Of a stretch of 64,000 nt of DNA, positions 23,249-44,105 are shown piece by piece; position 1 is the stretch's first letter, and the number at the start of each line of letters is the position of its first letter. The translations under genes and the position numbers were made by a program. The stretch is from an uncultured delta proteobacterium (GTDB lineage: Bacteria > Myxococcota_A > Polyangia > Polyangiales > B10-G4). The notes beneath the pieces are model-generated. The model was given only the letters and a program-made list of their open reading frames with translations. It was not told where the DNA came from and searched no databases. The stretch covers positions 320,001 through 384,000 of the forward strand of contig CAVSGI010000010.1 in the NCBI GenBank assembly GCA_963727445.1, read 5' to 3'.

Positions 23249-23280
23249 AGCGGTCGTTCATCTCGAGAAGAGGCAGGAAG

Positions 23281-23958: not shown

Positions 23959-23968
23959 TGGTCACTCG

Positions 23969-24700
23969 ATGACCGAGCTCGCTTACTCGCGCATGATGTT
24001 GAAGCTCTCCGGCGAGGCCCTCTGCGGCCGCGTCGGGGGCTTCGGCGTCGACCCCGAGACGCTTCACACCATCAGCGTCGAGCTCGCGGAGGTGGCGAAC
24101 CTCGGGGTGGAGCTCTCCATCGTCATCGGCGGCGGCAACATCTTCCGCGGCCTGAGGGGCAGCGCCTCGGGGATGGACCGCGCGAGCGCCGACTACATGG
24201 GCATGCTGGCGACGGTGATCAACGGCATCGCGCTCCAGGACGCGCTCGAGAAGCTCGGGGTCAGCACGCGTCTGATCAGCGCTCTCGACATCCGCCAGGT
24301 CGCCGAGCCGTACATTCGGCGGCGCGCGGTGCGGCACCTCGAGAAGAGGCGGGTCGTCATCTTCGTCGCCGGCACCGGCAATCCCTACTTCTCCACCGAC
24401 ACCGCGGCGGCGCTGCGCGCGATGGAGATCCAGGCGCAGGTGCTGCTCAAAGCGACCAAGGTCGAAGGGATCTACGACAAGGATCCCGCCGAGCACGAAG
24501 ACGCCAAGATGTTCCGGCGCATCAGCTACGACAGGTTCCTCACCGAGCGGATCGGGGTGATGGACTCCACCGCCGTGACGCTGTGTCGCGAGAACAAGCT
24601 GCCCATTCGCGTGGTCAAGCTCGCGAAACGAGGGAACATCAAGCGGGTGGTCCTGGGCGAGGACCTCGGGACGCTGGTAACCGAGTCGGGAGAGGGGTAA
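23969..24700 (+). CDS. pyrH: Uridylate kinase
   Basis: [42 protein letters not shown]; rpsB-tsf-pyrH-frr order. Confidence 0.97.
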
Positions 24701-28530: not shown

Positions 28531-28638
28531 GTCCGGCGGCGCGACCGGCGCCGAGCCGCCGGCTCTCCTGCCAGGGAACTGTCAGGATGAGGCGCTTCTC
28601 CCCTTGTGCTTTCGCGCGAGGGGCGCCAACGATCCCCC

Positions 28639-29889
28639 ATGCAACGGGTGGAGGCGCTCCTCGAGCGATACACGGCTGTCCGCCGCCAGAGCATGGCGCT
28701 TTGCGAGCCGCTCGCGGTGGAAGACCTCGTGGTGCAGAGCATGCCGGACGCGAGCCCGCTCAAGTGGCACCTCGCGCACACGACCTGGTTCTTCGACACC
28801 TTCGTCGCCGGGCCCGGCGGACGGCCCGTGGGGTCGGATGCCTACCGGCACCTCTTCAACAGCTACTACGAGACGGTGGGCTCTCCTTTTCCGCGTCCGC
28901 TTCGGGGCACGCTCTCGCGGCCGACGGTGGCCGAGGTGCGCGCCTATCGGCGCCGCGTCGACCAAGCGGTTCCGCTTGCGGTAGAGGAAGCCGCCAGCGA
29001 CACCGCGCTCTTCGCCTCGCTCCTGCGCGCCCTCGAGATCGGCATCCACCACGAGCAACAACATCAGGAGTTGATGCTCACCGACGTGAAGCACGCGCTC
29101 GGATCGAATCCGCTGAGGCCCGCCTACGACGCGACGCTCGATCTGGCGCCCGCGGTCGCTGCGCCGATGGAGATGGTGGGATTCGAAGGGGGCGTGCACG
29201 AGGTCGGTCACGCGGGTGACGGCTTCGCCTACGACAACGAGAGCCCCCGCCACCGCGTCTTCGTCGAAGACTTCTCCCTCGCGTCGCGCCTGGTGAGCAA
29301 CGAGGAGTTCGCCGCCTTCGTCGAGGATGGCGGCTATCGCTCCTCTGCGCTCTGGCTCGACGAGGGGTGGGCCTGGGTGCGCGAGCAGGGCATCGAGGCT
29401 CCGCTCTACTGGGATCCGGTTGGCGGCGGTCATGCCAGCTACACGCTCGCTGGGGTGAAGCCCCTCGACCCACACGCGCCCGTCTGCCACGTGAGCTTCT
29501 TCGAGGCCGACGCGTATGCACGCTGGGCGAACAAGCGTCTTGTCACCGAAGAGGAGTGGGAGGTCGCCGCGGCCACCGTCGATGCGTCGAGCCGCGGGAC
29601 GCTGCAGGACGACGGGGTTCTTCATCCGGTCGGGCGGCCGGCGCGCGGGAAGGTGCAGCACCTCTTCGGCGAGGTGTGGGAGCACACCGCGAGCGCCTAC
29701 CGACCGTATCCGGGCTTTTCGCCGCTCGGCGGCGCGCTCGGCGAGTACAACGGCAAGTTCATGAGCGGACAGATGGTGCTCCGCGGCGCGTCGTGCGCGA
29801 CGCCCGCGAGCCACCTCCGGGTCACGTACCGAAACTTCTTCGCGCCGCAGAAGCGGTGGCAGTTCACTGGCTTTCGCCTGGCCGAATAG
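28639..29889 (+). CDS. egtB: Ergothioneine biosynthesis sulfoxide synthase EgtB
   Basis: QSMPDASPLKWHLAHTTWFF, LFNSYYE, HHEQQHQELMLTD, GEYNGKFM, RWQFTGFRLA. Confidence 0.96.
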   Translation: MQRVEALLERYTAVRRQSMALCEPLAVEDLVVQSMPDASPLKWHLAHTTWFFDTFVAGPGGRPVGSDAYRHLFNSYYETVGSPFPRPLRGTLSRPTVAEVRAYRRRVDQAVPLAVEEAASDTALFASLLRALEIGIHHEQQHQELMLTDVKHALGSNPLRPAYDATLDLAPAVAAPMEMVGFEGGVHEVGHAGDGFAYDNESPRHRVFVEDFSLASRLVSNEEFAAFVEDGGYRSSALWLDEGWAWVREQGIEAPLYWDPVGGGHASYTLAGVKPLDPHAPVCHVSFFEADAYARWANKRLVTEEEWEVAAATVDASSRGTLQDDGVLHPVGRPARGKVQHLFGEVWEHTASAYRPYPGFSPLGGALGEYNGKFMSGQMVLRGASCATPASHLRVTYRNFFAPQKRWQFTGFRLAE

Positions 29890-29897
29890 GGGGACCG

Positions 29898-30935
29898 ATG
29901 AGTGACGAGCGACGTTATCGTGTGCTGACGGAGGCCGACGTTCGCCCGCTCAGAGACGAGCGCCGAGAGCTCGCCCTCGAGGTGCTCCTCGGGCTCAGCG
30001 ATCGGCCGAAGCGCCTGCCGTCGAAGCACTTCTACGACGACGCCGGCAGCCGCCTCTTTCAGCAGATCATGGGCCTCGACGAGTACTACCTCACGGCGTG
30101 CGAGACGCAGATCCTCGAAAACCACGCCAAGGAGATCGTCTCGCGCTTCGTCGGGAAACGGATCAATCTCGTCGATCTCGGCGCCGGCGACGGAAAGAAG
30201 ACGCGGATTCTCCTCACCGAGCTCGAACGGCAGGGCGTGGACGCGCAGTACGTGCCCATCGACATCTCCGAAGGCGCGATGAAGGTCCTGCTCGAGGGGA
30301 TGGACGCCCAGGACGTGCACGTGCCGATTCGAGGCATCGTCGGGGAGTACGCGGACGGACTCCGATGGACGAGCCACGCTCACGCCGACCGCTCGTCGCT
30401 GGTGCTCTTCCTCGGCTCGAACATCGGCAACTTCAACCGTCCGCAGGCCCGCTCGTTCCTGCGTCAGCTCTGGAACCACCTGCGCCCCGAGGACTCCCTG
30501 CTCGTCGGTTTCGACCTCAAGAAGGACATCGACGTCCTGCTCAGCGCCTACAACGACTCCCAGGGAGTGACGGCGGCGTTCAACAAGAACCTGCTCTCGC
30601 GGATCAATCGGGAGCTCGATGCGAACTTCGACCTGAGCGCCTTTCGCCACTACGGCACGTACGACGTGCACTCCGGCGCCATGGTGAGCTATCTGGTGAG
30701 CCTGGAGCGGCAGCGCGTCGAGATCGGCGCCCTCGACCACGCCTTCGAGTTCGCCGCCTGGGAGCCGGTGCACACCGAGTACAGCTACAAGTACCTCCCG
30801 ACCGACATCGAAGCGCTCGCCGACGACACCGGCTTCTTCCCGGTCGCCCAGTACTTCGACGACCGCCAATACTTCACCGACTGCCTGTGGCGCGTGAAGG
30901 CGCAGCACACCGTGAAGTCCGCCGTGACCGGCTGA
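29898..30935 (+). CDS. egtD: L-histidine N-alpha-methyltransferase EgtD
   Basis: LPSKHFYDDAGSRLF..I..LDEYY, DLGAGDG.KT, FLGSNIGNF, AYNDSQGVTAAFN.N, HTEYSYKY; follows egtB. Confidence 0.95.
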   Translation: MSDERRYRVLTEADVRPLRDERRELALEVLLGLSDRPKRLPSKHFYDDAGSRLFQQIMGLDEYYLTACETQILENHAKEIVSRFVGKRINLVDLGAGDGKKTRILLTELERQGVDAQYVPIDISEGAMKVLLEGMDAQDVHVPIRGIVGEYADGLRWTSHAHADRSSLVLFLGSNIGNFNRPQARSFLRQLWNHLRPEDSLLVGFDLKKDIDVLLSAYNDSQGVTAAFNKNLLSRINRELDANFDLSAFRHYGTYDVHSGAMVSYLVSLERQRVEIGALDHAFEFAAWEPVHTEYSYKYLPTDIEALADDTGFFPVAQYFDDRQYFTDCLWRVKAQHTVKSAVTG

Positions 30936-30950: not shown

Positions 30951-33095
30951 TCAAGGGAGCCGCTCGACCAGCTGATAGCTCCGGGTGAGGGTCTCGCCAT
31001 CGCGATCGAGGGTGATGGTCAGCTCGGTCGAGCTGCGCGCCTCGGCATACGCCTCGAGCGCTGCTTCGGGTCCGTCGATGGCGGCCCCGTTGACCGAACG
31101 GATCGAATCCCCGTTCTGTATCCCGAGCCGGTCCAAGAGCGAATTGGAGCGAATGCCGAAGAGCTTCATCCCGACGGGGTTTCCGTCTTCGATGTCGGGA
31201 ACGAGGCGGGCCAAGCGAAACACGTCGAGGTCGGGGCGTTCGGCGAGCTCGCGCGTGACGAGGTAGTGCCCCTCGCTCTGTTCGCGGATGCCGCGCTCGA
31301 CCGCCTCGGCCATGGGAGGCAGGTCCGTCGCCGGGGGGGCCTGGTCGGCGGCCAGGTCGGGGATCTCCGGCCGGCCGTCGAGAGCCGCCACCACGCGGAG
31401 CTCGGCTGCAGCCACGCGCGCGGCGGCGGTGATGAATGCGCTGGGCGTCGCGTCTTCGCCGAGCTCGAGATAGACATCTCCACTCGCTGTCTGTACAGCG
31501 CCGCTGCCATCGATCCGGATCTCGCTGCCCTCGTCGCCGAGGGGGGACAAGGTGAGGGCCGCTTCGGCGTCTGCGCCCACCACTGCGTGATAGGCGCGGG
31601 AGTACCGCTGGGGGCGGGGAACGGCGCTCGGCAGATGGACGATGGCACCGTTCATGCTCTGTGCGAAGGAGGCGAGCATCGGAAGGGCGCGTTCGATCTC
31701 GAGACGCTCCTCGGGGCTGAGCGCGGGTTCGGCCGAGCCTACCAGCGCGACCCGAGAGACTCCGGCGATCTCGGCGGCGCGAAGCACGGCGCGGAGGGTT
31801 TCGGCGGTGACCCGACGATCGACGGCGAAGCTCGAGAGGTCCTCCGGCGCGTCGACGTCGGCGTTCGGGCCCGTGACGAGGCCGAGCTCTGCCGCGAGGT
31901 CGGTGGGATGGTCCAGGGGGATGCGTCGCGCGGGCGCGGCGGTGGGGACGAGCGCGTCGGGCAGGAGCAACGCGCCGGGAGTGACGATCAGGTCCATGCC
32001 CGACGCAGCGACGTACGCGGGCTCGAAGGACTCGACCCCGGCCCAGGGCGTGGTCGCCTGCGCCGCGACGTCACCTTCGGCCCCTCGCACGACCACGCCG
32101 TCGACGAGCGGAGCGGTGAGGAGGAGGAGCGCGACCAGCCCGCCACCGACGAAGCCCCCCACGGTGGGGCGGGCGCGCGTCCACGCCCAGACCACCATCG
32201 CCAGGAGCGGAGGTGCCGTGAGCGCGAACGCCCAGGTCGAGACGCTTCGAAAGACGGCCACGTCCCGCGCGCTGCTGGCCAGGACGGAGCCCACGCCGTG
32301 ACCGACCGCGGCCAGGCCGTCCATGACCTGGACCATGGCGCCGGTGGCGCTGGCGCTCGTCGCGGCGACGAAGGCGAGGCTGAGCGCGGCGACCGAGGAG
32401 ACCGCGAGCGCGGCGCTCCTGTGCCGTGGCGCGTCGCGTCCGACTGCCGCGCCCGCCAGGGCCACGCACGGCAAGGAGAGGGCGGCGACGCCGAGGGGAG
32501 CGAGGGGACCCTGAAGGCCCCAGACGGTGAGGAGCCACACGGCGACGCCCAGCATTGGCAGCGCGGTGAGCGCGAGCGCGGCGGCGGCCGCTTTGCGGTT
32601 CGGCGCGCGCTGTCCGGCGGCGGCGAGGGCGAAGCCCAGCGCGACGCCCGAGAGCGTGCCCGCCGAGAGCGAGGCGCCGATGAGGTGGGAGAGGCTGACC
32701 AGGAGGACGCCTTGCGCGGTCACCGCGGTGCGCGTCGCCGGATCGGCGAAGCCTAGCGCGCTCTCGACCTGGTAGGTGGCGAGACGTGTGCCCGCGAGGC
32801 CGACGAGCCAGGGAAGCGTGGCTACGCCGAGGGTGACGAACGCGGGAACGCGCTTGGTCAGACCGCCCAACAAAAGGAGCACCCCGCAGAGGACGGGCAC
32901 CAGGGCGAATGGCAAGAGCAATGCGTAGGAGACCGGATCGAGCGCTCCGACCGCTTCCGTCGAACGCACGCCCAGGGCGACTCCGACACAACAGGTCGTG
33001 CCGAAGACCAGCGGCATCACGGCGGCCACGCCGGCGAGGGCCTTGCTCGGCTCGCGCGGCGTCGTCGTCGATGCTTCCTCCGGGCGAGCCGTCAT
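30951..33095 (-). CDS. Multi-pass membrane protein with C-terminal GspC-like PDZ domain; putative ExbB-like and ExbD-like regions
   Basis: C-terminus 'GMKLFGIRSNSLLDRLGIQNGDSIRSVNG...LDRDGE'; about 8-9 TM segments at the N-terminus. Confidence 0.65.
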   Translation of the reverse strand: MTARPEEASTTTPREPSKALAGVAAVMPLVFGTTCCVGVALGVRSTEAVGALDPVSYALLLPFALVPVLCGVLLLLGGLTKRVPAFVTLGVATLPWLVGLAGTRLATYQVESALGFADPATRTAVTAQGVLLVSLSHLIGASLSAGTLSGVALGFALAAAGQRAPNRKAAAAALALTALPMLGVAVWLLTVWGLQGPLAPLGVAALSLPCVALAGAAVGRDAPRHRSAALAVSSVAALSLAFVAATSASATGAMVQVMDGLAAVGHGVGSVLASSARDVAVFRSVSTWAFALTAPPLLAMVVWAWTRARPTVGGFVGGGLVALLLLTAPLVDGVVVRGAEGDVAAQATTPWAGVESFEPAYVAASGMDLIVTPGALLLPDALVPTAAPARRIPLDHPTDLAAELGLVTGPNADVDAPEDLSSFAVDRRVTAETLRAVLRAAEIAGVSRVALVGSAEPALSPEERLEIERALPMLASFAQSMNGAIVHLPSAVPRPQRYSRAYHAVVGADAEAALTLSPLGDEGSEIRIDGSGAVQTASGDVYLELGEDATPSAFITAAARVAAAELRVVAALDGRPEIPDLAADQAPPATDLPPMAEAVERGIREQSEGHYLVTRELAERPDLDVFRLARLVPDIEDGNPVGMKLFGIRSNSLLDRLGIQNGDSIRSVNGAAIDGPEAALEAYAEARSSTELTITLDRDGETLTRSYQLVERLP

Positions 33096-33129
33096 CGCCG
33101 TCGAGGGTACACGCCGAGGGCAATCGCAG

Positions 33130-35349
33130 TCAGAGGCCGCTGGAAGGCTCAGGGATGGGCAAGCCGCTCGCGTCCAGATTTCGCTGGTTGTCTCGGTAGA
33201 GGACTTCGTCGTTGATGCGCGCCTGGTCGAAGCCCGCCGTCTGGATGTTGGCGCCGATGGGATTCGACGAGACGACGCCGCTGTGCAGGTCCATCGTGCC
33301 TCCGCCCGCGAGCTGGATGCCGGCCAGCGCATTGCCGTCGACGACAAAGTCGCGGGCATCGAGCTGGGCGTTCGAATAGGCGCCGAGGCCGACGCCGATG
33401 CCGGCGCCACTGCAGCTGGAGGTGGCGCAGGCGCGCTCCGCCGTGTCCCGCACCTCGACGTCGACGAGCTCGACGGTGGTGCCATCGCCGCGCGCCGCGA
33501 TGGTAATCTCCCGGTTGTCGGTGAAGAAGCCTCCCTGGACGTTCACGGTGGCGCCATTCTGGGCGACGAGCCCGACGCCGAATTGTCCGCTCGCGGCTTC
33601 GCTCTCGGTGCGCCTGACCACCACGCTCTCGAGGGTGAGCGACGTGCCGGCGCCGTCGGCGCCGATGCCGGTCTCGTGGTTGTCCTCGACGAGCACCGAG
33701 GTCGCGCGCGCGTGGCTGCCGTCGCCCAGATACATGCCGCGACCGAAGCGCCCGTCGCTCGTCTGGCCGCGTGTGCCGCGGATGATGAGGTCGGTGATCT
33801 CGGCGTCGGCCGTCGCTCCCACGATGACGAGGCCCGCCTGCTCGTTGTCCTCGAGCAGAACGCGCTCGAGCTGCGCAGAATCCTCGACGTGGATCCCCTG
33901 ACCGAGCGTTCCATCCAGCCTGCGGCCGATGGTGTCGCGAATCGTCACGTCCGACAGGACGAGGGGCGTGCCCGTCCGCGTGGAGACGCCCGCGGTCTGG
34001 TTTCCGGCGAAGAGCGAGAGCGTGACCTGGGCGCTCGCGGCGTCCTCGAGACCGAGGCCGAATCCGTCGATCACGTCTCCCTCGGCGCCGGTGGTGTCGG
34101 CTACCACCAGGTGCTCCCCCTCGACGCGGCTACCCGAACCCAACGCGAAGACGCCCGCCTCGGCCGTGTTGGCCACGAAGACGCGTTCGAGCATCGCCAT
34201 AGAACCCTCGCTCAGGCTCAGCCCGCGCCCGAGACGCCCGTCCGAGGTTCGCGTGATGTCGCGGATGATCGAGTCGCGCAGCACGAGAGCGGTTTGAGCG
34301 TTGGTCATCGTGATGCCGCCGCTGACGTTGCGCTCGATCACGCTGGCGTCGAGGGTGATGTGGCCGCCCTCCGACACGTCGACGCCCTGCCCGAAGCGCC
34401 CGTCGGCCTGGGGCATCGTTCCGAAAAGCGCCAGCTCGCTGATCGCGGCGGAGGAACCGGCGCCGAGCACCCACAGGCCCGTCGCCAGGTTGCCCTCGAG
34501 GGTCACCTGCGCGAGCTCGACTGTGGAGCCATCGAAGACGGCGAGACCCGCGCCGGACTCGCCCGTCGCGCGCGCGCGTGTCTCGCGAACGACGACCCGG
34601 TCTCCGCTCGCGTGGGCGCCGTTTCGCACGACGACCCCGAACTCCCGCGCCCCCTCGACGGCGACACCGTGGAGCTCGACCGCGCCGGACTGCACCACGA
34701 CTCCGGGTCGCTCGCCAGAGAGGTGGACGTTGCGCACGACCGCGCCTTCCCCGAGCACCGTCACCACGCCGCTCGACACCGAAGCGCTCGTCGCCTCGAT
34801 CCCCGAGTCGGAGGTGCAAGCGCCCACCAGAGAGACGCCCGCCCTCAGGGATACGGCCTCCGAAGCCATGCCCCTTGCCAACGCGATCGTGGTGCCGGAG
34901 CTGGCGCGCGCGACGGCATCGGCAATCGTCGCGAAGGGCGCATCGCGCGAGCCATCCCCACTCGGCGCTGCACCCGGCTGCACGTACAGAACGTTCGTGG
35001 CCGGCAAATCCTCGGCCCACGCGCCCGCGGGGCAGGGAGCGCCAATCGGTGCGCACGCCGCCGTCCCGACGAAGCGAGCCTCTCCCATCGCGCAACCGTG
35101 CACCGTCCCCGACGCCCACGGCTCGCAGACCGTCACGCCATGAGCCGAGCGCTCGGTCCATCCATCCGGGCACGGCGTGAGCACGGGTGGCGCGGGCGAA
35201 AGGACCGCCATCCCGGCGTCGCCGCCCGCGTCCATCATGGCCGCGTCGGGTTCGCCTCCGTCGTCGCCGGTGCAGCCGAACAGCGCGAGGCATCCCACGA
35301 TCGTGCATCGGGCGAGCGCGATGAAGAGCGACCGAGCGAAAGCGCGCAT
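33130..35349 (-). CDS. Lipoprotein with right-handed parallel beta-helix repeats (paralog of 25300-27309)
   Basis: Lipobox LFGC; PPVLTPC..GW...CEPW; GDGSRDAPFATI; repeated DGRFGxG units. Confidence 0.82.
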   Translation of the reverse strand: MRAFARSLFIALARCTIVGCLALFGCTGDDGGEPDAAMMDAGGDAGMAVLSPAPPVLTPCPDGWTERSAHGVTVCEPWASGTVHGCAMGEARFVGTAACAPIGAPCPAGAWAEDLPATNVLYVQPGAAPSGDGSRDAPFATIADAVARASSGTTIALARGMASEAVSLRAGVSLVGACTSDSGIEATSASVSSGVVTVLGEGAVVRNVHLSGERPGVVVQSGAVELHGVAVEGAREFGVVVRNGAHASGDRVVVRETRARATGESGAGLAVFDGSTVELAQVTLEGNLATGLWVLGAGSSAAISELALFGTMPQADGRFGQGVDVSEGGHITLDASVIERNVSGGITMTNAQTALVLRDSIIRDITRTSDGRLGRGLSLSEGSMAMLERVFVANTAEAGVFALGSGSRVEGEHLVVADTTGAEGDVIDGFGLGLEDAASAQVTLSLFAGNQTAGVSTRTGTPLVLSDVTIRDTIGRRLDGTLGQGIHVEDSAQLERVLLEDNEQAGLVIVGATADAEITDLIIRGTRGQTSDGRFGRGMYLGDGSHARATSVLVEDNHETGIGADGAGTSLTLESVVVRRTESEAASGQFGVGLVAQNGATVNVQGGFFTDNREITIAARGDGTTVELVDVEVRDTAERACATSSCSGAGIGVGLGAYSNAQLDARDFVVDGNALAGIQLAGGGTMDLHSGVVSSNPIGANIQTAGFDQARINDEVLYRDNQRNLDASGLPIPEPSSGL

Positions 35350-35441
35350 GAGGGACCAGTGTGCCAAAAAGAAGAGGTGGCGACCCATCAAAGCGCTCGA
35401 CGCTCGTTGCTCGCGCGCGCGCCCAGCGGTAGAAGGGCCCG

Positions 35442-36911
35442 ATGGAGCGTCGCGAGCGACCCTATCTCTTTTATTCGGCGACGCGCGCGCTCTGCGGGAC
35501 CTGCCTTGCCACCGTCGACGCCAAGGAGCTGATCGAGGACGGCAAGGTCTGGCTCTGGAAGCGATGTCCGGAGCATGGCCAGGAGCGGGTGCTCATCAGC
35601 GACGACGTCGCGTACTTCAAGCTCTGCCGCGAGGTCTTCCTCAAGCCGCCCGAGCAGGTGGAGCGCTACAACACGCCCTTCGCCCGCGGTTGCCCGCACG
35701 ATTGCGGCATCTGCCCCGACCACGAGCAGCACGGCTGCGTCAGCCTCCTCGAGATCACCGACCACTGCAATCTGCGCTGCCCCACCTGCTATGCCTCGAG
35801 CGGACCGGAGCGCGACTCGGTCCGAACGATGGACGAGATCTGCGCGATGCTCGATCGCATCGTGGCGAACGAAGCGGAGCCCGACGTGGTGCAGGTCTCG
35901 GGCGGCGAGCCGACCACTCATCCTCGGCTCTTCGAGATCCTCGACGAGTGCCGGCGTCGGCCGATCAAGCACTTGATGCTCAACACGAACGGCCTGCGCA
36001 TCGCGCAGGAGCCGGGCTTCGCCGAGCGACTCGCGGCGTACCAGCCGGGATTCGAGGTGTACCTGCAGTTCGACGGAGTCTCCGACGAGGTGGCGCGCCC
36101 GCTCCGCGGTGCCGACGTCACCGAGCTCAAGAAGCGCGCCGTCGAACGGCTGAACGAGGTCGGGCTCTCCACCACGCTCGTCGCCACCATCCGGCGCGGC
36201 GTGAACGACGATCGCCTCGGTGAGCTCATCGCCTACGCCGCCGCGCAGCCCGCGGTGCGCGGGGTGACGCTGCAGCCCATCTACGACTCGGGGCGCAACG
36301 AGCACTTCGAGCCGGAAGGGCACCGCATCCCCTTGTCGGAGGTGCGGCGGCGTGTCGTCGAGCAGTTTCCGGCGCTCACCGCCGCGGACGTGATCCCGGT
36401 GCCCTGTCACCCCGACTGCCTGGCGATGGCCTACGCGATCCGTGGCGAGGGCGAGCGCTTTGCCGAGCTCACGCCGCTCACCCGGCACGTCCCCGCGGAG
36501 GTGCTCCTCTCGGCGGGCAAGAACACCATCGTCTACGAGGGCATGGCGAAGCAGATCTTCCGCACCTTCTCGACCGGCCATGGCCCCGAGGGTGCGACGC
36601 ACGCGCTTCGCGACCTCCTGTGCTGCCTGCCGCGGGTCGACGCGCTCCCGGAGCTCACCTACGACCGCGTCTTCCGCGTGCTGATCATGTCCTTTCTCGA
36701 CAAGCACACGCTGGACCTCCGCTCGGTCCGCAAGAGCTGCGTCCACGTCGCGTCTCGCGACGGCAGGCGCATGATCCCGATGGACACCTACAACATCTTC
36801 TATCGCGACGCGCCGGCGGAGAGCGAGCTGGTGGCGGCTTCGTCGCTCGGGCGCCGGTCGAGCCAGAAGAGCACGGCGAAGAGCGCGATGAACGCGAGCG
36901 ACGACCACTGA
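35442..36911 (+). CDS. Radical SAM protein of the tetraether lipid synthase (Tes/GDGT-MAS, MJ0619-like) family
   Basis: N-terminal CxxC...KRCPEHG, GCPHDCGICPDH, radical SAM motif CNLRCPTCYA, QVSGGEPT, LNTNG, YLQFDG, late SCVH...IPMDTYN. Confidence 0.88.
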   Translation: MERRERPYLFYSATRALCGTCLATVDAKELIEDGKVWLWKRCPEHGQERVLISDDVAYFKLCREVFLKPPEQVERYNTPFARGCPHDCGICPDHEQHGCVSLLEITDHCNLRCPTCYASSGPERDSVRTMDEICAMLDRIVANEAEPDVVQVSGGEPTTHPRLFEILDECRRRPIKHLMLNTNGLRIAQEPGFAERLAAYQPGFEVYLQFDGVSDEVARPLRGADVTELKKRAVERLNEVGLSTTLVATIRRGVNDDRLGELIAYAAAQPAVRGVTLQPIYDSGRNEHFEPEGHRIPLSEVRRRVVEQFPALTAADVIPVPCHPDCLAMAYAIRGEGERFAELTPLTRHVPAEVLLSAGKNTIVYEGMAKQIFRTFSTGHGPEGATHALRDLLCCLPRVDALPELTYDRVFRVLIMSFLDKHTLDLRSVRKSCVHVASRDGRRMIPMDTYNIFYRDAPAESELVAASSLGRRSSQKSTAKSAMNASDDH

Positions 36912-37528
36912 TAGAAGGTGAGGCCGAGGGCGAGCGTCGGCTCCGGCCGCACCCACTCGGTGAAGAAGCGGTAGACGAAGTAGGCGAGGAAGTAGAGCTT
37001 GATCCGCTGGCGCTCGAAGAGGCCGCGCTGGCCGAGCGCGTAGAGCACCACAGCCGCGCTGGCGTGAAAGAGCGCCTCGTAGATCTGCGTGGGATGGCGG
37101 GCGACGCCGTCGCCGAAGTCGACCGCCCAGGGAAGGGTGCTGGCCGCGCCGTAGCAGCAGCCCGCCCAGAAGCACCCGAGGCGGCCGACGGCGATGCTGG
37201 CCGCCAGCGGCACCGCGAAGCTGTCGCCGGTCTTGGTTTTCACGCCCGCGGCGAGCTTCGCCACCTCGACCCCGAAGTAGCCCCCGACCAGGCCGAAGGT
37301 GATGGTGCGCCCATCACCGAGCCACACGGTGCCGTCGAGCAGCCCCGCGGGGTCGGCGACGAGCCAGGGGATCTTGGCGAAGGTCGTGCCGCCGATGATC
37401 GCACCGAGGACGAGGGCGAGGCGCGTGAGCCGGTTCAGCGGCAGGGGTGGCGACAACTTGCGGCGCACCACCGCTCCCACCAGGACCGCGCTGCTCATGA
37501 TGAGCAGATAGACGAAGTCGACATTCAA
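36800..37528 (-). CDS. Prolipoprotein diacylglyceryl transferase (Lgt)-like protein, divergent paralog
   Basis: GRLGCFWAGCCYG, PWAVDF, RHPTQIYE, RFFTEWVR, multi-TM; TTG start overlaps the upstream stop (TTGA). Confidence 0.87.
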   Translation of the reverse strand: MNVDFVYLLIMSSAVLVGAVVRRKLSPPLPLNRLTRLALVLGAIIGGTTFAKIPWLVADPAGLLDGTVWLGDGRTITFGLVGGYFGVEVAKLAAGVKTKTGDSFAVPLAASIAVGRLGCFWAGCCYGAASTLPWAVDFGDGVARHPTQIYEALFHASAAVVLYALGQRGLFERQRIKLYFLAYFVYRFFTEWVRPEPTLALGLTFYQWSSLAFIALFAVLFWLDRRPSDEAATSSLSAGASR

Positions 37529-38085
37529 TACGCGCCCCCGAACGCCAGGACGCCGAAGCAGATGGCGATGAGGATGATGAAGGCAGCGACCGCCAAGAGG
37601 AAGACCAGACCGGTCACCACCACCACCGCGCCGAGGCCGATGGCCAGGGCCGTGGCGACCTCGCCCATCACGTCGCTGGCCATCGAGGAAGACTCTTCGG
37701 CCTGGTCCGCGCGCGCTGTGGCGTTCGCGGGCTGGGCACTCGGTGGGGCGCCGCTCGACTCGAAGGGCTTGCGGTCGCGCCAGAAGTCGAAGCGCTGCAC
37801 GTAGATGATGCGCGCCATCACCGCCACCACCGGCACCAGCATCAGCGCGTAGGGGACGAGGAGCCCCGGCCAAAGGAGCGCGAGCTCGAGCGCGACGCCG
37901 AGCATCACCATGAGCGCGAGGACGAAGCCGCCGATCCAGACGAAGCCCTCGAGCGGGGGCGCCGCGACAAGCTGACCCGTCGGCGCGGCCGCCGTTTCGG
38001 CGAGGGGGTAGCCGCAGAGCCAGCAGAACTTCGCGTCACCCTCGGCGCCGCTCCCGCAGCTCGGGCAGATACGGCCCGCCTTCAC
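37525..38085 (-). CDS. Zn-ribbon membrane protein with C-terminal hydrophobic helix ending ...IILIAICFG
   Basis: CPSC...CWLC at the N-terminus, two TM helices, low-complexity linker, long C-terminal TM; GTG start overlaps the upstream stop (GTGA). Confidence 0.75.
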   Translation of the reverse strand: MKAGRICPSCGSGAEGDAKFCWLCGYPLAETAAAPTGQLVAAPPLEGFVWIGGFVLALMVMLGVALELALLWPGLLVPYALMLVPVVAVMARIIYVQRFDFWRDRKPFESSGAPPSAQPANATARADQAEESSSMASDVMGEVATALAIGLGAVVVVTGLVFLLAVAAFIILIAICFGVLAFGGAY

Positions 38086-38705
38086 GAGGCCTCCTTCCGC
38101 GCGGCGTAGGCGTCGGCTGCCTCGCGAAGCGCCTTCATGAGCTGGCCGAGGGCGAGGCCGCTGAGCCCGAGGGCGAGGATGGTCATCACCTGTTGGTAGC
38201 GGGGGACGCGCATCTCGGGGCGGCGGAGCCAGGCATCGCCCACCAGCACCACGTAGCCGCCGATGGTGGCCAGGGTCGTGTAGCGGACCAGCGGGCGACT
38301 CAGGCGGAGGGGCGCGCCGGCGAGGATCACGAAGTAGGCGATGACCAGCGGGCTCTTCGGTCCGTCGGCGATCAAGAGGATCGACGTCAAGAGCACTACG
38401 TCGATGGTGGTGGTGACGTACTTCAGCGCCTCGGGGAAGCGCCGGCTGCGCATGGTGATGATCACGCCGAGCGCCGAGGCCATCCACGCCACCGCGAGCG
38501 CGGTGACCGCGGCGTGGAAGGTCTGGTCCACGCCCTCGACCCGCTCGAAGCTCAAGGAGCCGAGGTCCAGGCCGTGGTAGTTCAGGAGCTCGACCGCGTA
38601 GAAGCACGCGATGGCGAGGATCCGCATCAAGTTGGCCCGCTCTTCGCCGCGATACGACCACACACGACGAACGACGTGCCAAGCGCTCGGGAGTGCGTCG
38701 GACAT
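38082..38705 (-). CDS. Multi-pass membrane hypothetical protein
   Basis: About 6 hydrophobic segments; 'KYVTTTIDVVLLT...GPKSPLVIAYFVIL' resembles membrane anchor domains of cyclases/kinases, but no catalytic domain follows. Confidence 0.72.
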   Translation of the reverse strand: MSDALPSAWHVVRRVWSYRGEERANLMRILAIACFYAVELLNYHGLDLGSLSFERVEGVDQTFHAAVTALAVAWMASALGVIITMRSRRFPEALKYVTTTIDVVLLTSILLIADGPKSPLVIAYFVILAGAPLRLSRPLVRYTTLATIGGYVVLVGDAWLRRPEMRVPRYQQVMTILALGLSGLALGQLMKALREAADAYAARKEAS

Positions 38706-38756: not shown

Positions 38757-39731
38757 TCACTGCGCGGCCGTCGGGCGCGCGACGAGGGTGATCGCTCGCC
38801 GGTCCTCCTCGGCTCTGGAGAGCAAGCGGCTCAGGCGGTCGGCGACGGAGGTGCGGTGGGTCGGCAGGCTGAATGCGTCTCGGTCTTCGTGACATCGCGC
38901 GCAGGGCATCGTGGTGAGGGCTTGGGGGGCGCCGAGGTCGAGGAGGAAATCGTCCGCGCCGAGATCGGGAATGCGGCGAACCTCGGTCTCTTCGCGGAGC
39001 AGCAGCTCACCGCACGCGAGCGCGGCGCGATCGAGATGGAAGACGCGTGCTCTCGCCGGACCGTCTTCGTCGAGCTCGAGCAGCTCGATCTCGCCAGCGA
39101 CCCGCGAGAGGTACGCGGCGCCGGCATCGTCGAGGGCGACGAGCTGGCTCGCGAGGGCGCGCGCTTCGTGGTCACCCCGTACGAAGAGTCGAAAGACGCG
39201 TCTCAGCCCGAAGAGACGTTCGTGGGTGAGCACCACGTGCTCGGTGTCGAGCTCGCGCCAGCCGTCTCGCGAAGCGAGCACGTGCTCGACGATCGGCGGT
39301 GCGTCGACGCTGTCGAAGCGCGCGCCGGATGGGAGCGCGAAGCGGGTGATGAAGTCGTCGAGGGCGGCGAGCAGTGCCTGGCTCTCGGGTGACGAGATGC
39401 CCGTCGCGCGGAGGCGCGCCGCGGCCCCCCAGGCGTCTCCTTGTGTGACGACCGCCACTTCGGGGCGCACCTGACTCGCGTGGCGCGCCGGGACCCGGGA
39501 GAGCGCCGCGGTCAGCTCGCTGGCTCGGGCGAGCACGCCCTCGCTGTCGGCCGAGAGCAGCGCCGGCTCACCATTCGACGTCGTGACGGCGTACACGCGC
39601 GCGAGCGCCGCGCTCCCGTAGGATGGAGCGTCGCACGACGTCGTGGCTGGCTGGCGCACCTCTTCGTCACAACCGTCGCAGCTCCACAAGAAAAAGGGCA
39701 GCGCGAGGAGGAGCGCTCGAGGCCGATTCAC
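38757..39731 (-). CDS. Hypothetical lipoprotein with a single CxxCH (possible c-type heme site)
   Basis: Leader LLLALPFFLWSC; 'PCARCHE' near the C-terminus; GTG overlaps the acyl-CoA dehydrogenase stop. Confidence 0.6.
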   Translation of the reverse strand: MNRPRALLLALPFFLWSCDGCDEEVRQPATTSCDAPSYGSAALARVYAVTTSNGEPALLSADSEGVLARASELTAALSRVPARHASQVRPEVAVVTQGDAWGAAARLRATGISSPESQALLAALDDFITRFALPSGARFDSVDAPPIVEHVLASRDGWRELDTEHVVLTHERLFGLRRVFRLFVRGDHEARALASQLVALDDAGAAYLSRVAGEIELLELDEDGPARARVFHLDRAALACGELLLREETEVRRIPDLGADDFLLDLGAPQALTTMPCARCHEDRDAFSLPTHRTSVADRLSRLLSRAEEDRRAITLVARPTAAQ

Positions 39732-41656
39732 TCGGCGGCGTGGGCCTGCCCGTCGCGCTCGCGCGCCGCGAGCTCTTCGAGGAGGCGGTCGCCGGTGGTG
39801 GTGATCTCGTCCGCCCAGTAGCGGCAGCGCGGCTCGGCGCGCTCGAGGTAGCGCTCCAGCACCTCGCGGCGGTGCGGGTGCTTCTGCGCCTGTTCGAGGA
39901 GGATCTCGCAGACCATTTCGTCGGCGAGGAGCTTGGTCAGGCGTTCGGCGTGGAGCATGGCGAAGGCGAAGTCGCGCTTCGGATCCCAGTTCTTGAGGAA
40001 CTTGTCCGGCCACTCGGTGATGGGTTGGTCGGAGACCGAGCGGAACTTGTCGCCGGCCGTCTTGCGCAGCAGGTATTGCTTCACGCCGTCGGACAGGACG
40101 TTGATCTTCGCCACGCGGCGCTCGAGGGGGTCGCGTGCGGAGACCGAGCGCCAGCGTGCCTGCGCCGCGCGTCGCACGAAGCGCTGCGGGCTGTTCATGA
40201 TACCGCCGAGCGTGTCCTTCATGGCCATCAGCGACTGGATCTGGCTGGTGCCTTCGTAGATGGGCATCACCATCGCGTCGCGGAGGAGCTTCTCGGCGGG
40301 ATACTCGTTCATGTAGCCGTTGCCGCCGTGGATCTGGACGCAGCGGCGTGCCATCTGCACCGCCTTCTCACTGGCCAGGTACTTGAGGAGCGGCGTCGCG
40401 CGCCGGGAGAGGCGCTGCCGGCGCTTCGCCTCTCGCTCCATCTCCTCGGCAGACATGCCCGATTGCGAACCTCCAAAGCGCGCGCCGAGGAGAAACTTTT
40501 GTGCGATCTCCTCGTGGTATGCCGCCCAGACAGCCATCGCACGGACGGCCTGGATGTCCGTCTTCATCTCTTCGAGGTAGTCGGCGATCATCTCGTGCCG
40601 GTCGATGGTCTTGCCCATCGAGGGGCGCTCCTCGGCGTATGCAATCGCCGCGCGATAGGCGGCCTCACAGATGCCGATGCACTCGAAGCCCACGCCGACC
40701 CGCGCGTTGTTCATCAGTGTGAGCATGTGCTTGAAGCCTTCGCCCCGCTTGCCGATGAGGTCGGCCGGCGCGCGATCGAAGAGGAGCGCCGCGGTGGTCG
40801 AGCCGTGGTGGCCGAGCTTCTCCTCGACCCGCGTGATCTGCACGATGCGCTCGCGGGTCCCGTCTGCGTTCTCCCGATAGGTGGGCACCAGGAACATGGA
40901 GAGCCCACCGAGGCCCGAGAAGGGATCGTCGAGATCGCCCTGAGGCTCGGTGCGCGCGATGACGAAGTGGTACTTCCCGTGACCCGCGGTGATGAAGATC
41001 TTCTCACCGCTCACGTACCAGTTGCCGTCCTCGTCCTGCTCGCCGACCGTGCGGAGCTGCGCCATGTCGCTTCCGGCATGCGGCTCGGTGATGTCCATGC
41101 AGCCCCAGGCCTTGCCGCTGCGGATCTCCTCGATGTAGTCGGCCCACCGCGTGCTGACGATCCGCGCGTTTTCGGCGTCGATCTCGCTCGTCCCCTCGCG
41201 GATCGAGAAGATCAGCATCGCCATGGCCATGCCGCCGTGGAAGCTGTGATGCGCGAGCACCGAGACGTCGGCGCGTCCCATCATCTCCGAGTTCATGAAG
41301 TAGAGCAGCAGCGGACAGTTCATCCCGCCGAGCTCGCGCGGGATGGTCATCCCGTGCAGCTCGAGGGCGGCGATCTTGCGGAAGATCGCTTCGAACTCGG
41401 CGGGCTGCTTCGGCTCGCCGTCCACCAGCTCGACGCCCTCGCGATCGATCTTGGCCGCGTGCGGCGCGATCTCGTTGGCGGTGAACTCGCCGACCATCTC
41501 CGCGATCTCGCGGTAGAACTCGACCGCCTCCTTCGGATCTTTGAACGCGTCCTTGGCGCGGTAATCGAACTCGGTGAGCCGCACCAGCGGCTCCCAGTCG
41601 ATGCCTTCGCGCATGTAGTACTGGAGGTCTTCGTTGTCTTTGAAGAAGTTCGCCAT
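39728..41656 (-). CDS. Acyl-CoA dehydrogenase family protein
   Basis: MDITEPHAGSD, GEKIFITAG, EEKLGHHGS.T, MNNARVGVG, VQIHGGNGY..EYP, PIYEGTSQIQ. Confidence 0.93.
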   Translation of the reverse strand: MANFFKDNEDLQYYMREGIDWEPLVRLTEFDYRAKDAFKDPKEAVEFYREIAEMVGEFTANEIAPHAAKIDREGVELVDGEPKQPAEFEAIFRKIAALELHGMTIPRELGGMNCPLLLYFMNSEMMGRADVSVLAHHSFHGGMAMAMLIFSIREGTSEIDAENARIVSTRWADYIEEIRSGKAWGCMDITEPHAGSDMAQLRTVGEQDEDGNWYVSGEKIFITAGHGKYHFVIARTEPQGDLDDPFSGLGGLSMFLVPTYRENADGTRERIVQITRVEEKLGHHGSTTAALLFDRAPADLIGKRGEGFKHMLTLMNNARVGVGFECIGICEAAYRAAIAYAEERPSMGKTIDRHEMIADYLEEMKTDIQAVRAMAVWAAYHEEIAQKFLLGARFGGSQSGMSAEEMEREAKRRQRLSRRATPLLKYLASEKAVQMARRCVQIHGGNGYMNEYPAEKLLRDAMVMPIYEGTSQIQSLMAMKDTLGGIMNSPQRFVRRAAQARWRSVSARDPLERRVAKINVLSDGVKQYLLRKTAGDKFRSVSDQPITEWPDKFLKNWDPKRDFAFAMLHAERLTKLLADEMVCEILLEQAQKHPHRREVLERYLERAEPRCRYWADEITTTGDRLLEELAARERDGQAHAAE

Positions 41657-42437: not shown

Positions 42438-44105
<1,668 letters not shown>

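What the first reader, a model, noticed from the sequence alone, without database searches (positions are those of the whole stretch)
35442..38705. Candidate new system: Tes-family radical SAM enzyme clustered with a divergent Lgt and two small membrane proteins
Seen: a Tes/GDGT-macrocyclase-like radical SAM gene (35442-36911, +) abuts three minus-strand genes (38705-38082, 38085-37525, 37528-36800) coupled by GTGA/TTGA start-stop overlaps; the last is Lgt-like. Established: archaeal Tes/GDGT-MAS joins terminal carbons of lipid tails by radical C-C coupling, and Lgt transfers diacylglyceryl from phosphatidylglycerol to a protein Cys. Inference: the two enzymes form one pathway. The Lgt paralog may lipidate a dedicated Cys-bearing membrane protein, with the radical SAM enzyme then crosslinking the tails to give a macrocyclic or membrane-spanning anchor. 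Alternatively the protein may act as a carrier in bacterial membrane-spanning lipid synthesis. I know of no characterised pathway with this gene set.
Basis: partly seen in the sequence, partly recalled or inferred. Interest (0 to 1): 0.85.

Follow-up and report, generated by a model that had tools for sequence, protein, structure and literature searches.

The report
Four-gene lipid-anchor tailoring cassette
Four linked genes (a spare, altered copy of the enzyme that fastens lipid onto bacterial proteins, a relative of the archaeal enzyme that welds lipid tails together, a small membrane protein with one fixed cysteine, and a lone receptor-shaped membrane protein) recur together in many bacteria and likely give the small protein an unusual, radical-modified lipid anchor, a pathway I could not find in print.

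Summary
The four genes are real and at the stated coordinates. The radical SAM gene overlaps the Lgt-like gene tail-to-tail by 112 nt rather than abutting it. The pairing is not chance: 72 of 80 close radical SAM relatives have an Lgt-like neighbour, and 9 natural fusions exist. Small membrane proteins with a helix-end Cys flank the pair (64 of 90, against 30 of 212 genome-wide). The genome has three other Lgt copies, one beside lspA. The radical SAM enzyme has the Tes fold but is not Tes proper: it is below the family cut-off and its third-cluster site is remodelled. Best reading (0.45): the Lgt paralog lipidates Cys176 of the zinc-ribbon protein with a lipid whose tails the radical enzyme has modified, probably before transfer. 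No chemistry is shown. This scan has reported the three-part module before (116 findings in at least 95 genomes). New here: a four-gene subtype whose fourth gene is a stand-alone adenylyl-cyclase-type six-helix module, and evidence that the radical SAM partner has been swapped and re-linked.

The parts
35442..36911 (+). Tes/GDGT-MAS-fold radical SAM enzyme, 489 aa (P0001). Rubredoxin site C18/C21/C42/H45, N-terminal cluster C84/C88/C91/H94 and radical SAM motif C109/C113/C116 are kept; the C-terminal cluster site is remodelled (C322, C326, C394, C395, M416, S432, C433, D448)
   Evidence: model pLDDT 87.6; match to 7TOM Z 44.1, rmsd 2.3, 407 aligned
36800..37528 (-). Lgt paralog, 242 aa, TTG start (P0002). 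Keeps Y26, G99, D129, G142, R143, G145, G154, Y235, R239, E243, R246 (E. coli numbering); H103 is Thr77, N146 is Cys119; family-specific invariant E88 and K91
37525..38085 (-). Zinc-ribbon membrane protein, 186 aa, GTG start with a strong ribosome-binding site (P0003). CxxC...CxxC at 7-24, hydrophobic stretches 42-99 and 138-186, conserved Cys176 ten residues from the C-terminus; likely lipid acceptor
37558..37560 (-). Codon of Cys176 of P0003, the candidate modification site (context I-A-I-C-F-G, not a canonical lipobox)
   Evidence: sequence; aligned Cys in 8 of 8 rows; a Cys 4-14 residues from the end in the homolog of 13 of 13 relatives
38082..38705 (-). Stand-alone six-helix membrane protein, 207 aa (P0004), with the fold of the membrane module of adenylyl cyclases and ImcA and no catalytic domain; conserved E21, R28, Y36, H64, W74, D102, R134
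36800..36911 (.). 112-nt tail-to-tail overlap of the radical SAM and Lgt-like genes; the last ~30 residues of the radical SAM protein are unconserved read-through of the lgt antisense strand
   Evidence: convergent layout with a 60-nt overlap in same-genus genome G013
37525..37528 (-). TTGA stop-start overlap of P0003 and the Lgt-like gene
38082..38085 (-). GTGA stop-start overlap of P0004 and P0003

Best explanation
These four genes are one conserved membrane module in which the Lgt paralog likely attaches a glycerolipid to Cys176 of the zinc-ribbon membrane protein, and the Tes-fold radical SAM enzyme likely modifies that lipid's hydrocarbon tails, probably before transfer. SHOWN (computation): gene linkage across phyla, natural fusions, the conserved Cys, retention of the Lgt phosphatidylglycerol-binding arginines, the Tes fold with two intact auxiliary metal sites, separate housekeeping-type lgt copies, and the cyclase-type fold of the fourth protein. 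INFERRED: (1) the soluble radical enzyme docks on the cytoplasmic face of the Lgt paralog, as in the N-Lgt/C-radical SAM fusions, perhaps at the family-specific E88/K91 patch. (2) It abstracts H from an acyl tail of a phospholipid and links or cyclises tails, giving a macrocyclic or membrane-spanning donor. (3) The Lgt paralog transfers that glyceryl-lipid to the Cys at the outer end of an in-to-out helix. (4) The bulky -1 residue keeps the housekeeping Lgt and LspA off, so the product stays an uncleaved, lipid-stapled membrane protein. (5) P0004 binds P0003 or the lipid as a receptor-like partner. The exact radical reaction is the weakest step.
For: Linkage: 72 of 80, 68 of them co-directional and 52 within 250 nt. 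From the Lgt side, 35 of 43 loci have the radical SAM gene within 5 kb. No Lgt lies beside 21 archaeal Tes or 8 other bacterial-labelled relatives among the 38 loci; the other 9 have one. Fusions: 9 of 13. Helix-end Cys in 64 of 90 nearby small membrane ORFs against 3 of 15 distant ones and 30 of 212 genome-wide. Net positive charge precedes the Cys-bearing helix in 52 of 64. R143 in 70 of 70 and R239 in 69 of 70 neighbours; both are essential in E. coli (PMC4728403, PMC13251419). Tes binds bacterial phospholipids with the tails in the pocket (PMC9433317 section 5). Fold match to 7TOM is Z 44.1, rmsd 2.3, 407 aligned, next unrelated row 19.2. P0004 and the close Lgt subtype occur in the same 13 of 150 other genomes of the order. 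Membrane modules of mammalian adenylyl cyclases respond to fatty acids (PMC11606603).
Against: No experiment. H103, the proposed base and essential in E. coli, is Thr here and Val/Leu/Thr/Ile in 70 of 70 neighbours. A strict lipobox occurs in only 3 of 64. Archaeal-invariant C338, C455 and C470 align to C326 (Cys in only 15 of 77 close relatives), S432 and D448; Y459 is Val; a 21-residue archaeal segment is missing; residues 361-401 are poorly modelled, so the second lipid pocket is untested. The nearest named family is TrsS, not Tes. The last hydrophobic stretch of P0003 is about 45 residues and is preceded by acidic residues, so the side on which Cys176 lies is uncertain for this protein. 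In 4 of 13 relatives the radical SAM gene is on another contig from the P0004-P0003-Lgt block. 31 of 81 Lgt-linked loci had no Cys protein under the strict filter. Here the radical SAM gene cannot share a transcript with the other three.
Confidence: 0.45

Rival explanations
1. Cys as radical trap or carrier. The radical enzyme makes a lipid-tail radical and joins it to the small protein's Cys as a thioether, in place of the cluster sulfide that Tes uses. The Lgt-like protein presents or loads the lipid. The protein-lipid adduct is either the product or an intermediate to membrane-spanning lipids.
For: Tes stores its first radical as a C-S bond to the C-terminal cluster (PMC9433317), and that site is the part remodelled here. 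The residues after the Cys stay hydrophobic, so it may be buried. The Lgt base H103 is lost.
Against: R143 and R239, which bind the phosphoglycerol head, are kept. The Cys usually follows a positively charged segment by one full helix, which puts it at the outer side, away from a cytoplasmic enzyme. The radical SAM clade found in the co-directional four-gene operons and the fusion proteins keep all three Tes-type Cys.
Confidence: 0.15
2. Membrane complex with non-lipid radical chemistry. The Tes scaffold acts on another substrate, as may hold for its sister family TrsS. The Lgt-like protein, P0003 and P0004 form an anchoring or sensing complex, and the Cys binds a metal or forms a disulfide.
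For: TrsS scores above Tes and lies between archaeal Tes and this clade on the trees. P0004 is a receptor-type fold with no output domain. P0003 has a zinc ribbon. Such modules work through partner membrane proteins in ImcA-IsmP (PMC10904736).
Against: P0004 and the zinc ribbon are confined to a subtype (7 of 80; 20 of 43), whereas Lgt plus a helix-end Cys is general. It does not explain the kept Lgt arginines and a Cys placed like a lipoprotein Cys.
Confidence: 0.15
3. RiPP-like lipopeptide. The small proteins are precursors: the radical enzyme modifies the peptide, the paralog lipidates the Cys, and LspA releases a 5-17 residue lipopeptide, as in DAG-RiPPs.
For: 39 of 64 Cys lie within 17 residues of the C-terminus. 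Tandem arrays of variable paralogs occur (L009, L060, L066, L070). The genome has two lspA and two lnt genes above cut-off. DAG-RiPPs exist (PMC13056109).
Against: The tails share no sequence motif and are hydrophobic. The -1 residue is often Leu, Ile, Val or Thr, which by recalled knowledge blocks LspA. 25 of 64 have long tails, often with another helix. No protease, transporter or lspA clustered with the pair in the neighbour clustering. DAG-RiPPs use canonical lipoboxes and an MNIO enzyme.
Confidence: 0.12
4. Bulk membrane-spanning lipid (diabolic acid or brGDGT) synthesis, with the Lgt-like protein as lipid handler and the small proteins incidental.
For: Proposed for bacterial Tes homologs (PMC8941075). 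Many loci are from Acidobacteria.
Against: Tes homologs were absent from the diabolic-acid producers that carry Mss and present in only 3 of 14 iso-diabolic-acid-producing acidobacteria (PMC13159169). The Solibacter homolog is 40% identical to archaeal Tes, against 29% for this one. It does not explain the Cys enrichment.
Confidence: 0.1
5. Chance neighbours: an orphan radical SAM gene that happens to converge on an unrelated three-gene operon.
For: Convergent orientation was seen in 0 of 72 Lgt-linked relatives. The closest relative (L001, 78%) has no Lgt within 6 kb. The radical SAM tree does not follow the Lgt tree.
Against: It is the only gene of this family found in the genome. All 13 relatives with P0004 and this Lgt subtype also have such a radical SAM gene, 9 of them adjacent. 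Fusions are 51-57% identical to this Lgt.
Confidence: 0.03

Closest known systems
Tetraether synthase Tes / GDGT-MAS (M. jannaschii MJ0619; PDB 7TOL, 7TOM; NCBIfam NF045702)
   Same: Whole four-domain fold (Z 44.1, rmsd 2.3, 407 aligned). Rubredoxin, N-terminal cluster and radical SAM ligands are all kept; the Met439 position is Met here.
   Different: 29% identity to a Methanocaldococcus Tes; 239 bits against cut-off 450. Two of three archaeal-invariant C-terminal Cys align to Ser and Asp; Tyr459 is Val; Arg150 is His; a 21-residue segment is missing; new invariant C99, C322, C433. Almost always beside an Lgt-like gene, which archaeal Tes loci were not.
Radical SAM (seleno)protein TrsS (NCBIfam NF045646)
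   Same: Best named-family score (309.9); shares C99, E104 and the missing archaeal segment.
   Different: Below cut-off 490. TrsS-type rows form a separate clade, keep Arg150 and the three Tes-type Cys, and have no Lgt neighbour. I saw TrsS only as a table row in PMC13188914, with no function given.
Lgt, phosphatidylglycerol:prolipoprotein diacylglyceryl transferase (E. coli; PDB 5AZB/5AZC; PF01790, TIGR00544)
   Same: Pfam match above cut-off; profile match to 5AZB at E 9e-18; Y26, R143, G154, R239, Y235, E243, R246 kept.
   Different: 18% identity to E. coli Lgt and 21-27% to the genome's other three copies; 39 bits against 118.9; H103 lost; N-terminal arm and most of the periplasmic head missing; invariant E88/K91; candidate substrates lack a canonical lipobox and an N-terminal signal peptide. 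N146C is shared with the other three copies in this genome, so it is not a mark of this paralog.
DAG-RiPPs (PMC13056109)
   Same: A small gene-encoded substrate, a radical-type modifying enzyme and Cys lipidation.
   Different: They use the housekeeping Lgt, a canonical N-terminal lipobox and an MNIO enzyme acting on the peptide; 'radical SAM' does not occur in that paper's text.
Six-helix membrane module of class III adenylyl cyclases (AC9 6R3Q, AC5 8SL3, Rv1625c 7YZI/7YZK) and of the diguanylate cyclase ImcA (8WCN)
   Same: P0004 model matches at Z 14.5 (rmsd 3.3, 185 aligned), 14.0 (2.9, 176) and 13.5 (3.1, 184), next row 10.0. A distant sequence homolog (E 4e-41) is fused to a Guanylate_cyc domain.
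   Different: No catalytic domain: the best 150 family representatives are all 310 aa or shorter. Foldseek alone gave no match under E 0.001, and helical bundles can reach such Z values by chance.
Mss, bacterial membrane-spanning lipid synthase (PMC13159169)
   Same: Radical SAM enzyme that couples acyl tails in bacteria.
   Different: Described as only remotely related to Tes; I did not compare P0001 with Mss directly.

Membership tests
Tes / GDGT-MAS | NCBIfam NF045702 score at or above 450 | tested here: not met
   239.3 bits; control Methanocaldococcus Tes 749.4
Tes / GDGT-MAS | Rubredoxin C-x2-C-x20-C-x2-H, N-terminal cluster 3 Cys + His, radical SAM CX3CX2C | tested here: met
   C18/C21/C42/H45, C84/C88/C91/H94, C109/C113/C116; invariant in 77 of 77 close relatives; motif definitions from PMC9433317
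Tes / GDGT-MAS | Overall four-domain fold | tested here: met
   TM-score 0.78; Z 44.1, rmsd 2.3, 407 aligned
Tes / GDGT-MAS | C-terminal [4Fe-4S] cluster with 3 Cys + Met439 | tested here: inconclusive
   The paper's text and searchable supplement give no Cys numbers; I inferred C338/C455/C470 from invariance in 19-20 of 20 archaeal rows. They align to C326, S432 and D448 here, but invariant C322 and C433 lie beside two of them and may substitute. Model coordinates could not be measured.
Tes / GDGT-MAS | Tyr459, strictly conserved in archaeal homologs though not needed for activity | tested here: not met
   Val436; Ile/Met/Phe in close relatives
Tes / GDGT-MAS | Falls in the archaeal Tes clade | tested here: not met
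   Lgt-linked rows form their own clade (SH-aLRT 100), apart from archaeal and TrsS-type rows
Tes / GDGT-MAS | C-C coupling of terminal lipid carbons; two lipid pockets | not testable with these tools
   Needs enzyme assay; residues 361-401 have pLDDT about 40-50
TrsS | NF045646 score at or above 490 | tested here: not met
   309.9; control L128 545.3
Lgt superfamily | PF01790 above cut-off; R143 and R239 | tested here: met
   82.2 against 24.9; R116 and R187
Housekeeping Lgt | TIGR00544 score at or above 118.9 | tested here: not met
   39 bits; the genome's other copies score 99.6, 78.7 and 64.3, also below cut-off, so the test is harsh for this lineage
Housekeeping Lgt | His or aromatic residue at H103 | tested here: not met
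   Thr77; V/L/T/I in 70 of 70 neighbours; Y, F, Y in the other three copies
Housekeeping Lgt | Complements lgt depletion; transfers diacylglyceryl from phosphatidylglycerol | not testable with these tools
   Bench test
Canonical lipoprotein (P0003) | [LVI][ASTVI][GAS]C at the end of an N-terminal signal peptide | tested here: not met
   I-A-I-C at 173-176 of 186; 3 of 64 family Cys match the strict box; box as given in the abstract of PMC12462473
DAG-RiPP | Canonical lipobox precursor plus MNIO modifying enzyme, housekeeping Lgt | tested here: not met
   No canonical box; no MNIO among the Pfam hits of the window proteins scanned
Membrane adenylyl cyclase / ImcA (P0004) | Six-helix membrane module fold | tested here: met
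   Six helices at pLDDT 95; Z 14.5/14.0/13.5 over 176-185 residues; fused homolog
Membrane adenylyl cyclase / ImcA (P0004) | Attached cyclase domain | tested here: not met
   207 aa, stop before any catalytic domain; no longer homolog found (weak evidence)

The most novel reading that the evidence does not exclude
The module installs a new post-translational modification: a macrocyclic or membrane-spanning lipid, made by a Tes-type radical enzyme, stapled to an internal cysteine of an uncleaved membrane protein by a dedicated Lgt. In this subtype a cyclase-less receptor module reads or presents it. Most bacterial 'Tes homologs' would then make protein-bound, not free, cross-linked lipids, and the radical partner would be an exchangeable part that has been swapped between cassettes and re-linked more than once.
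Probability: 0.3. Interest if true: 0.9.

Novelty: categorically new. Interest (0 to 1): 0.74.

Why it matters
Bacterial relatives of Tes were flagged as unexplained in both founding papers (PMC8941075, PMC9433317) and are used as markers when hunting producers of the brGDGT climate-proxy lipids. A large branch of them turns out to travel with a dedicated Lgt and a cysteine-bearing membrane protein. That names the enzyme pair, the likely substrate and the residue, so the question can be tested by one co-expression and intact-mass experiment. If right, it adds a new lipid modification of proteins, a second use for Lgt-family enzymes, and a reason not to count these homologs as brGDGT synthases. 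This locus adds a fourth component that links the module to the lipid-responsive membrane domain of adenylyl cyclases.

Tried and rejected
Complex prediction of the radical enzyme with the Lgt paralog was not available, so binding between them is untested. The promoter scan found 0 sites and 3 terminator-like sites against 1.5 +/- 1.5 in shuffles, none informative. Single-sequence search of the Lgt paralog against PDB gave nothing meaningful; the profile did. phmmer with P0003 found 0 of 80 relatives; homologs appeared only through P0004 loci. Atlas hits for P0003 were all under 0.9, leads only. No longer homologs of P0004 among 7,998 candidates. The P0004 profile against PDB sequences gave only weak NarI hits (E 0.07 or worse), rejected. 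Foldseek on the P0004 model gave no match under E 0.001, though ImcA and Rv1625c ranked first and second. The alignment of P0004 was too variable for a pattern scan. The 418-aa ORF upstream (38757-40013) and the beta-helix gene (33130-35391) were considered as parts and rejected: the first hit none of the other fetched loci, the second only 1. N146C and E151C were considered as signs of a new Lgt chemistry and rejected, because the genome's other copies share N146C (3 of 3) and E151C (2 of 3). Neighbour clustering found no further gene shared across phyla: the MFS-acyltransferase neighbour is limited to 9 loci, mostly Burkholderiales, and the fatty-acid-hydroxylase-like neighbour to 4 myxobacterial loci. 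The Cys ligands of the Tes C-terminal cluster were not in the text or the searchable supplement of PMC9433317; one supplement file of scanned pages and the figures could not be read.

Full report
1. Observation. Three minus-strand genes are coupled by GTGA and TTGA overlaps. The plus-strand radical SAM gene converges on them and overlaps the lgt-like gene by 112 nt. The nearest relatives carry Sandaracinaceae and Polyangiales titles, so the host is probably a myxobacterium. The genome is 9.47 Mb and 85.6% complete.

2. The pair is conserved. An Lgt profile found an Lgt-like gene in 72 of these 80 loci: 58 upstream and 10 downstream on the same strand, 4 divergent, 0 convergent; 52 lie within 250 nt. 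Of the 8 without, 4 have a flank under 800 nt. Record titles span Myxococcota, Planctomycetota, Acidobacteriota, Pseudomonadota, Gemmatimonadota, Elusimicrobiota and others. From the Lgt side, 35 of 43 loci have the radical SAM gene within 5 kb. Nine of 13 longer homologs of the Lgt are N-Lgt/C-radical SAM fusions, 51-57% identical to it; earlier scan notes suggested looking for these. As a control, a motif scan gave 38 more distant loci: the 21 with archaeal titles and 8 bacterial-labelled ones have no Lgt nearby, while 9 bacterial ones do. Kin are not independent, and some rows may be one genome reached by two tools, so these counts show breadth, not a test statistic.

3. The Lgt is a spare copy. 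The genome has four Lgt-family genes. The copy on C27 lies directly behind lspA and scores best against TIGR00544, so it is the likely housekeeping enzyme. Against E. coli Lgt, P0002 keeps Y26, G99, D129, G142, R143, G145, G154, Y235, R239, E243 and R246. It has Thr for H103 and Cys for N146. N146C is shared by the other three copies. Loss of an aromatic or His at 103, a short head domain and invariant E88 and K91 are specific to the radical SAM-linked family. PMC13251419 lists Y26, H103, R143, N146, G154 and R239 as required in E. coli, and notes that H103 and N146 vary in distant Lgts (passages). PMC4728403 places the active site in the periplasmic half (passages).

4. The radical SAM enzyme has the Tes fold but is not Tes. 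The model (pLDDT 87.6) matches 7TOM at Z 44.1, rmsd 2.3 over 407 residues. The rubredoxin, N-terminal cluster and radical SAM ligands are invariant. It is below the Tes and TrsS cut-offs and in its own clade. After the radical SAM domain, archaeal Tes has three invariant Cys (338, 455, 470; numbering through a Methanocaldococcus homolog and the 7TOL alignment), which I infer to be the C-terminal cluster ligands with Met439; the paper's text does not number them. They align here to C326, S432 and D448. All Lgt-linked groups examined instead share C99, H160, C322 and C433, and C322, C433 and H160 separate them from archaeal and most TrsS-type rows. Asp can ligate Fe-S clusters (recalled), so the site may be rebuilt rather than lost. 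This is the site where Tes stores its first radical (PMC9433317 passages), so the reaction may differ.

5. The likely substrate. Around the pair lie small membrane proteins, often in tandem arrays, with a Cys at the end of a hydrophobic helix. With a filter that I set after seeing these examples, 64 of 90 small two-helix ORFs within 700 nt had such a Cys, against 3 of 15 beyond 2.5 kb and 30 of 212 in this genome. 50 of 81 Lgt-linked loci had at least one; several misses are visible by eye. Only 3 of 64 match a strict lipobox; 39 of 64 lie within 17 residues of the C-terminus. Net positive charge precedes the helix in 52 of 64 and negative in 8, which suggests an outward-facing Cys. P0003 is the local member. 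Its Cys176 aligns in 8 of 8 rows, and all 13 relatives in the order end in a similar Cys with Ile, Val or Ala at -1. Its last hydrophobic stretch is unusually long, so its own topology is uncertain.

6. The fourth gene. P0004 heads a family of stand-alone proteins of about 210 aa: 484 representatives at E 1e-10 or better, and the best 150 are all 310 aa or shorter. Its model (pLDDT 95.3) matches the six-helix membrane module of ImcA and adenylyl cyclases 9 and 5 at Z 14.5, 14.0 and 13.5, with the next row at 10.0. Foldseek ranked ImcA and Rv1625c first without significance. A distant homolog is fused to a class III cyclase domain, and 38 of 121 members hit Pfam 6TM_PilS at E 0.01 or better. 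Among 150 other genomes of the order, P0004 homologs and the close Lgt subtype (56% identity or more) occur in exactly the same 13, and a P0003 homolog follows P0004 in all 13. In the phylum of G152 (201 genomes), 5 genomes had a strong stand-alone hit: 4 have the radical SAM and Lgt genes beside it and the fifth has them together on another contig. The four weaker hits are not linked. Mammalian cyclase modules respond to fatty acids (PMC11606603, abstract and passages), and the ImcA helices bind a partner membrane protein (PMC10904736, passages). Lipid or partner binding by P0004 is therefore plausible but only inferred.

7. The locus is a mosaic. The Lgts that go with P0004 form one clade with the fusions (support 0.999; 18 of 19 marked rows, two of which are probably the same sequence), whereas their radical SAM partners fall into at least four clades. 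Holding 13 myxobacterial partners together is rejected (42 rows, p-AU 5e-7); I defined the group by P0004 presence but had already seen a first tree. G123 has an Lgt 66% identical to ours and a radical SAM only 34% identical. Of the 13 relatives, 6 have the order P0004-P0003-radical SAM-Lgt with the other clade (one broken by a contig end, one with frameshifts), 2 have the radical SAM gene of our clade behind the Lgt, 1 (same genus, across a contig break) has it convergent as here, and 4 have it on another contig. The simplest reading is loss of the original partner, replacement from another cassette, and re-linking in two ways. The direction is inferred. The convergent layout is thus not an assembly artefact, and it argues for selection on keeping the genes together.

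8. Mechanism. Shown: linkage, fusion, residues, folds. Inferred: the radical enzyme works on the cytoplasmic face, on phospholipid tails as Tes does (PMC9433317 section 5); the Lgt paralog moves the modified glyceryl-lipid to the Cys; the bulky -1 residue prevents LspA cleavage (recalled rule); P0004 partners P0003. I give this 0.45, and about 0.9 to the weaker claim that the genes act in one pathway. Rivals: Cys as radical trap or carrier 0.15; non-lipid chemistry in a membrane complex 0.15; RiPP-like lipopeptide 0.12; bulk membrane-spanning lipids 0.10; chance 0.03.

9. Literature. Searches combining Tes, GDGT-MAS, MJ0619, IPR034474, Lgt, lipoprotein, brGDGT, TrsS, lgt paralog and non-canonical lipobox listed no paper that describes this gene set; the library holds only Creative Commons PMC papers and bioRxiv. 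Read as passages: PMC8941075, PMC13459092, a review to 2025 that names no such system in the passages shown, PMC13159169, PMC13274423, bioRxiv 2022.04.07.487437, PMC13188914, PMC13056109 (abstract and passages). PMC12462473 was seen only as a listing with the start of its abstract. Supplements of these papers other than file 1 of PMC9433317 were not seen, and could hold neighbourhood analyses.

10. Earlier scan findings. The three-part module was already reported 116 times in at least 95 genomes. I had reached the same reading before the first look-up and tested it separately. Look-ups by the P0004 sequence, by look-alike place and by words for the cyclase-type fourth gene returned nothing.

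11. Verdict. A real, widespread module with no description found in print; function inferred, not shown. Categorically new as a system, although each enzyme belongs to a known superfamily. Interest 0.74.

Noticed in passing
window 6249-7267 (+): Uroporphyrinogen decarboxylase (hemE) is in two abutting ORFs covering profile positions 6-260 and 263-345: a split gene or a sequence error.
   Followed up: no
window 22418-24697 (+): rpsB matches only 112 of 216 profile positions, and one 412-aa ORF holds both EF-Ts and UMP-kinase-type domains: frameshifts or a tsf-pyrH fusion.
   Followed up: no
window 33130-35391 (-) and 25300-27309 (+): Two members of a secreted beta-helix protein family that is much expanded in this genome (many paralogs at about 30% identity on several contigs).
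   Followed up: partly
window 38757-40013 (-): Orphan 418-aa ORF with a hydrophobic segment, early Cys residues and a CxxCH motif near the C-terminus; no Pfam or NCBIfam hit, no paralog, not conserved beside the cassette.
   Followed up: partly
window 28606-30935 (+): DinB/FGE-sulfatase plus histidine methyltransferase pair, the egtB-egtD ergothioneine arrangement (names recalled; domains).
   Followed up: no
window 42441-44105 (+): groEL with no groES seen beside it; a TetR gene and an acyl-CoA dehydrogenase lie upstream on the other strand.
   Followed up: no
window 30951-33485 (-): Multi-helix membrane protein ending in a GspC-like PDZ region (NF041515, 120.6 against cut-off 150).
   Followed up: no
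G032, G050, G055, G057, G078, G086, G106, G111: Relatives in the order carry tandem pairs or triples of Tes-like radical SAM genes at 29-37% identity, with no hit to this Lgt in those genomes at E 1e-18: a different, unexamined arrangement.
   Followed up: no
L016, L021, L022, L024: In myxobacterial loci a fatty-acid-hydroxylase/desaturase-like gene (His-box motifs seen by eye) sits between or beside the divergent Lgt and the radical SAM gene.
   Followed up: no
L013, L014, L017, L023, L033, L037, L040, L071, L073: In these mostly Burkholderiales loci a long MFS-type membrane protein precedes the Cys protein, Lgt and radical SAM genes on the same strand.
   Followed up: no
L046, L048, L049, L080: In Vicinamibacteria the Cys protein has a soluble domain between an N-terminal hydrophobic segment and a C-terminal helix ending in a near-canonical box (L-V-G-A-C).
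   Followed up: no
L069 (JAHFFE/CAZXUC rows; record titled Halobacteriales archaeon): One locus with an archaeal title carries the bacterial-type Lgt, radical SAM and Cys-protein cassette; it could be transfer or a binning error.
   Followed up: no
P0005-P0013: Fusion proteins keep the three Tes-type C-terminal Cys but have Lys at the Met439 position and a degraded N-terminal cluster motif.
   Followed up: partly
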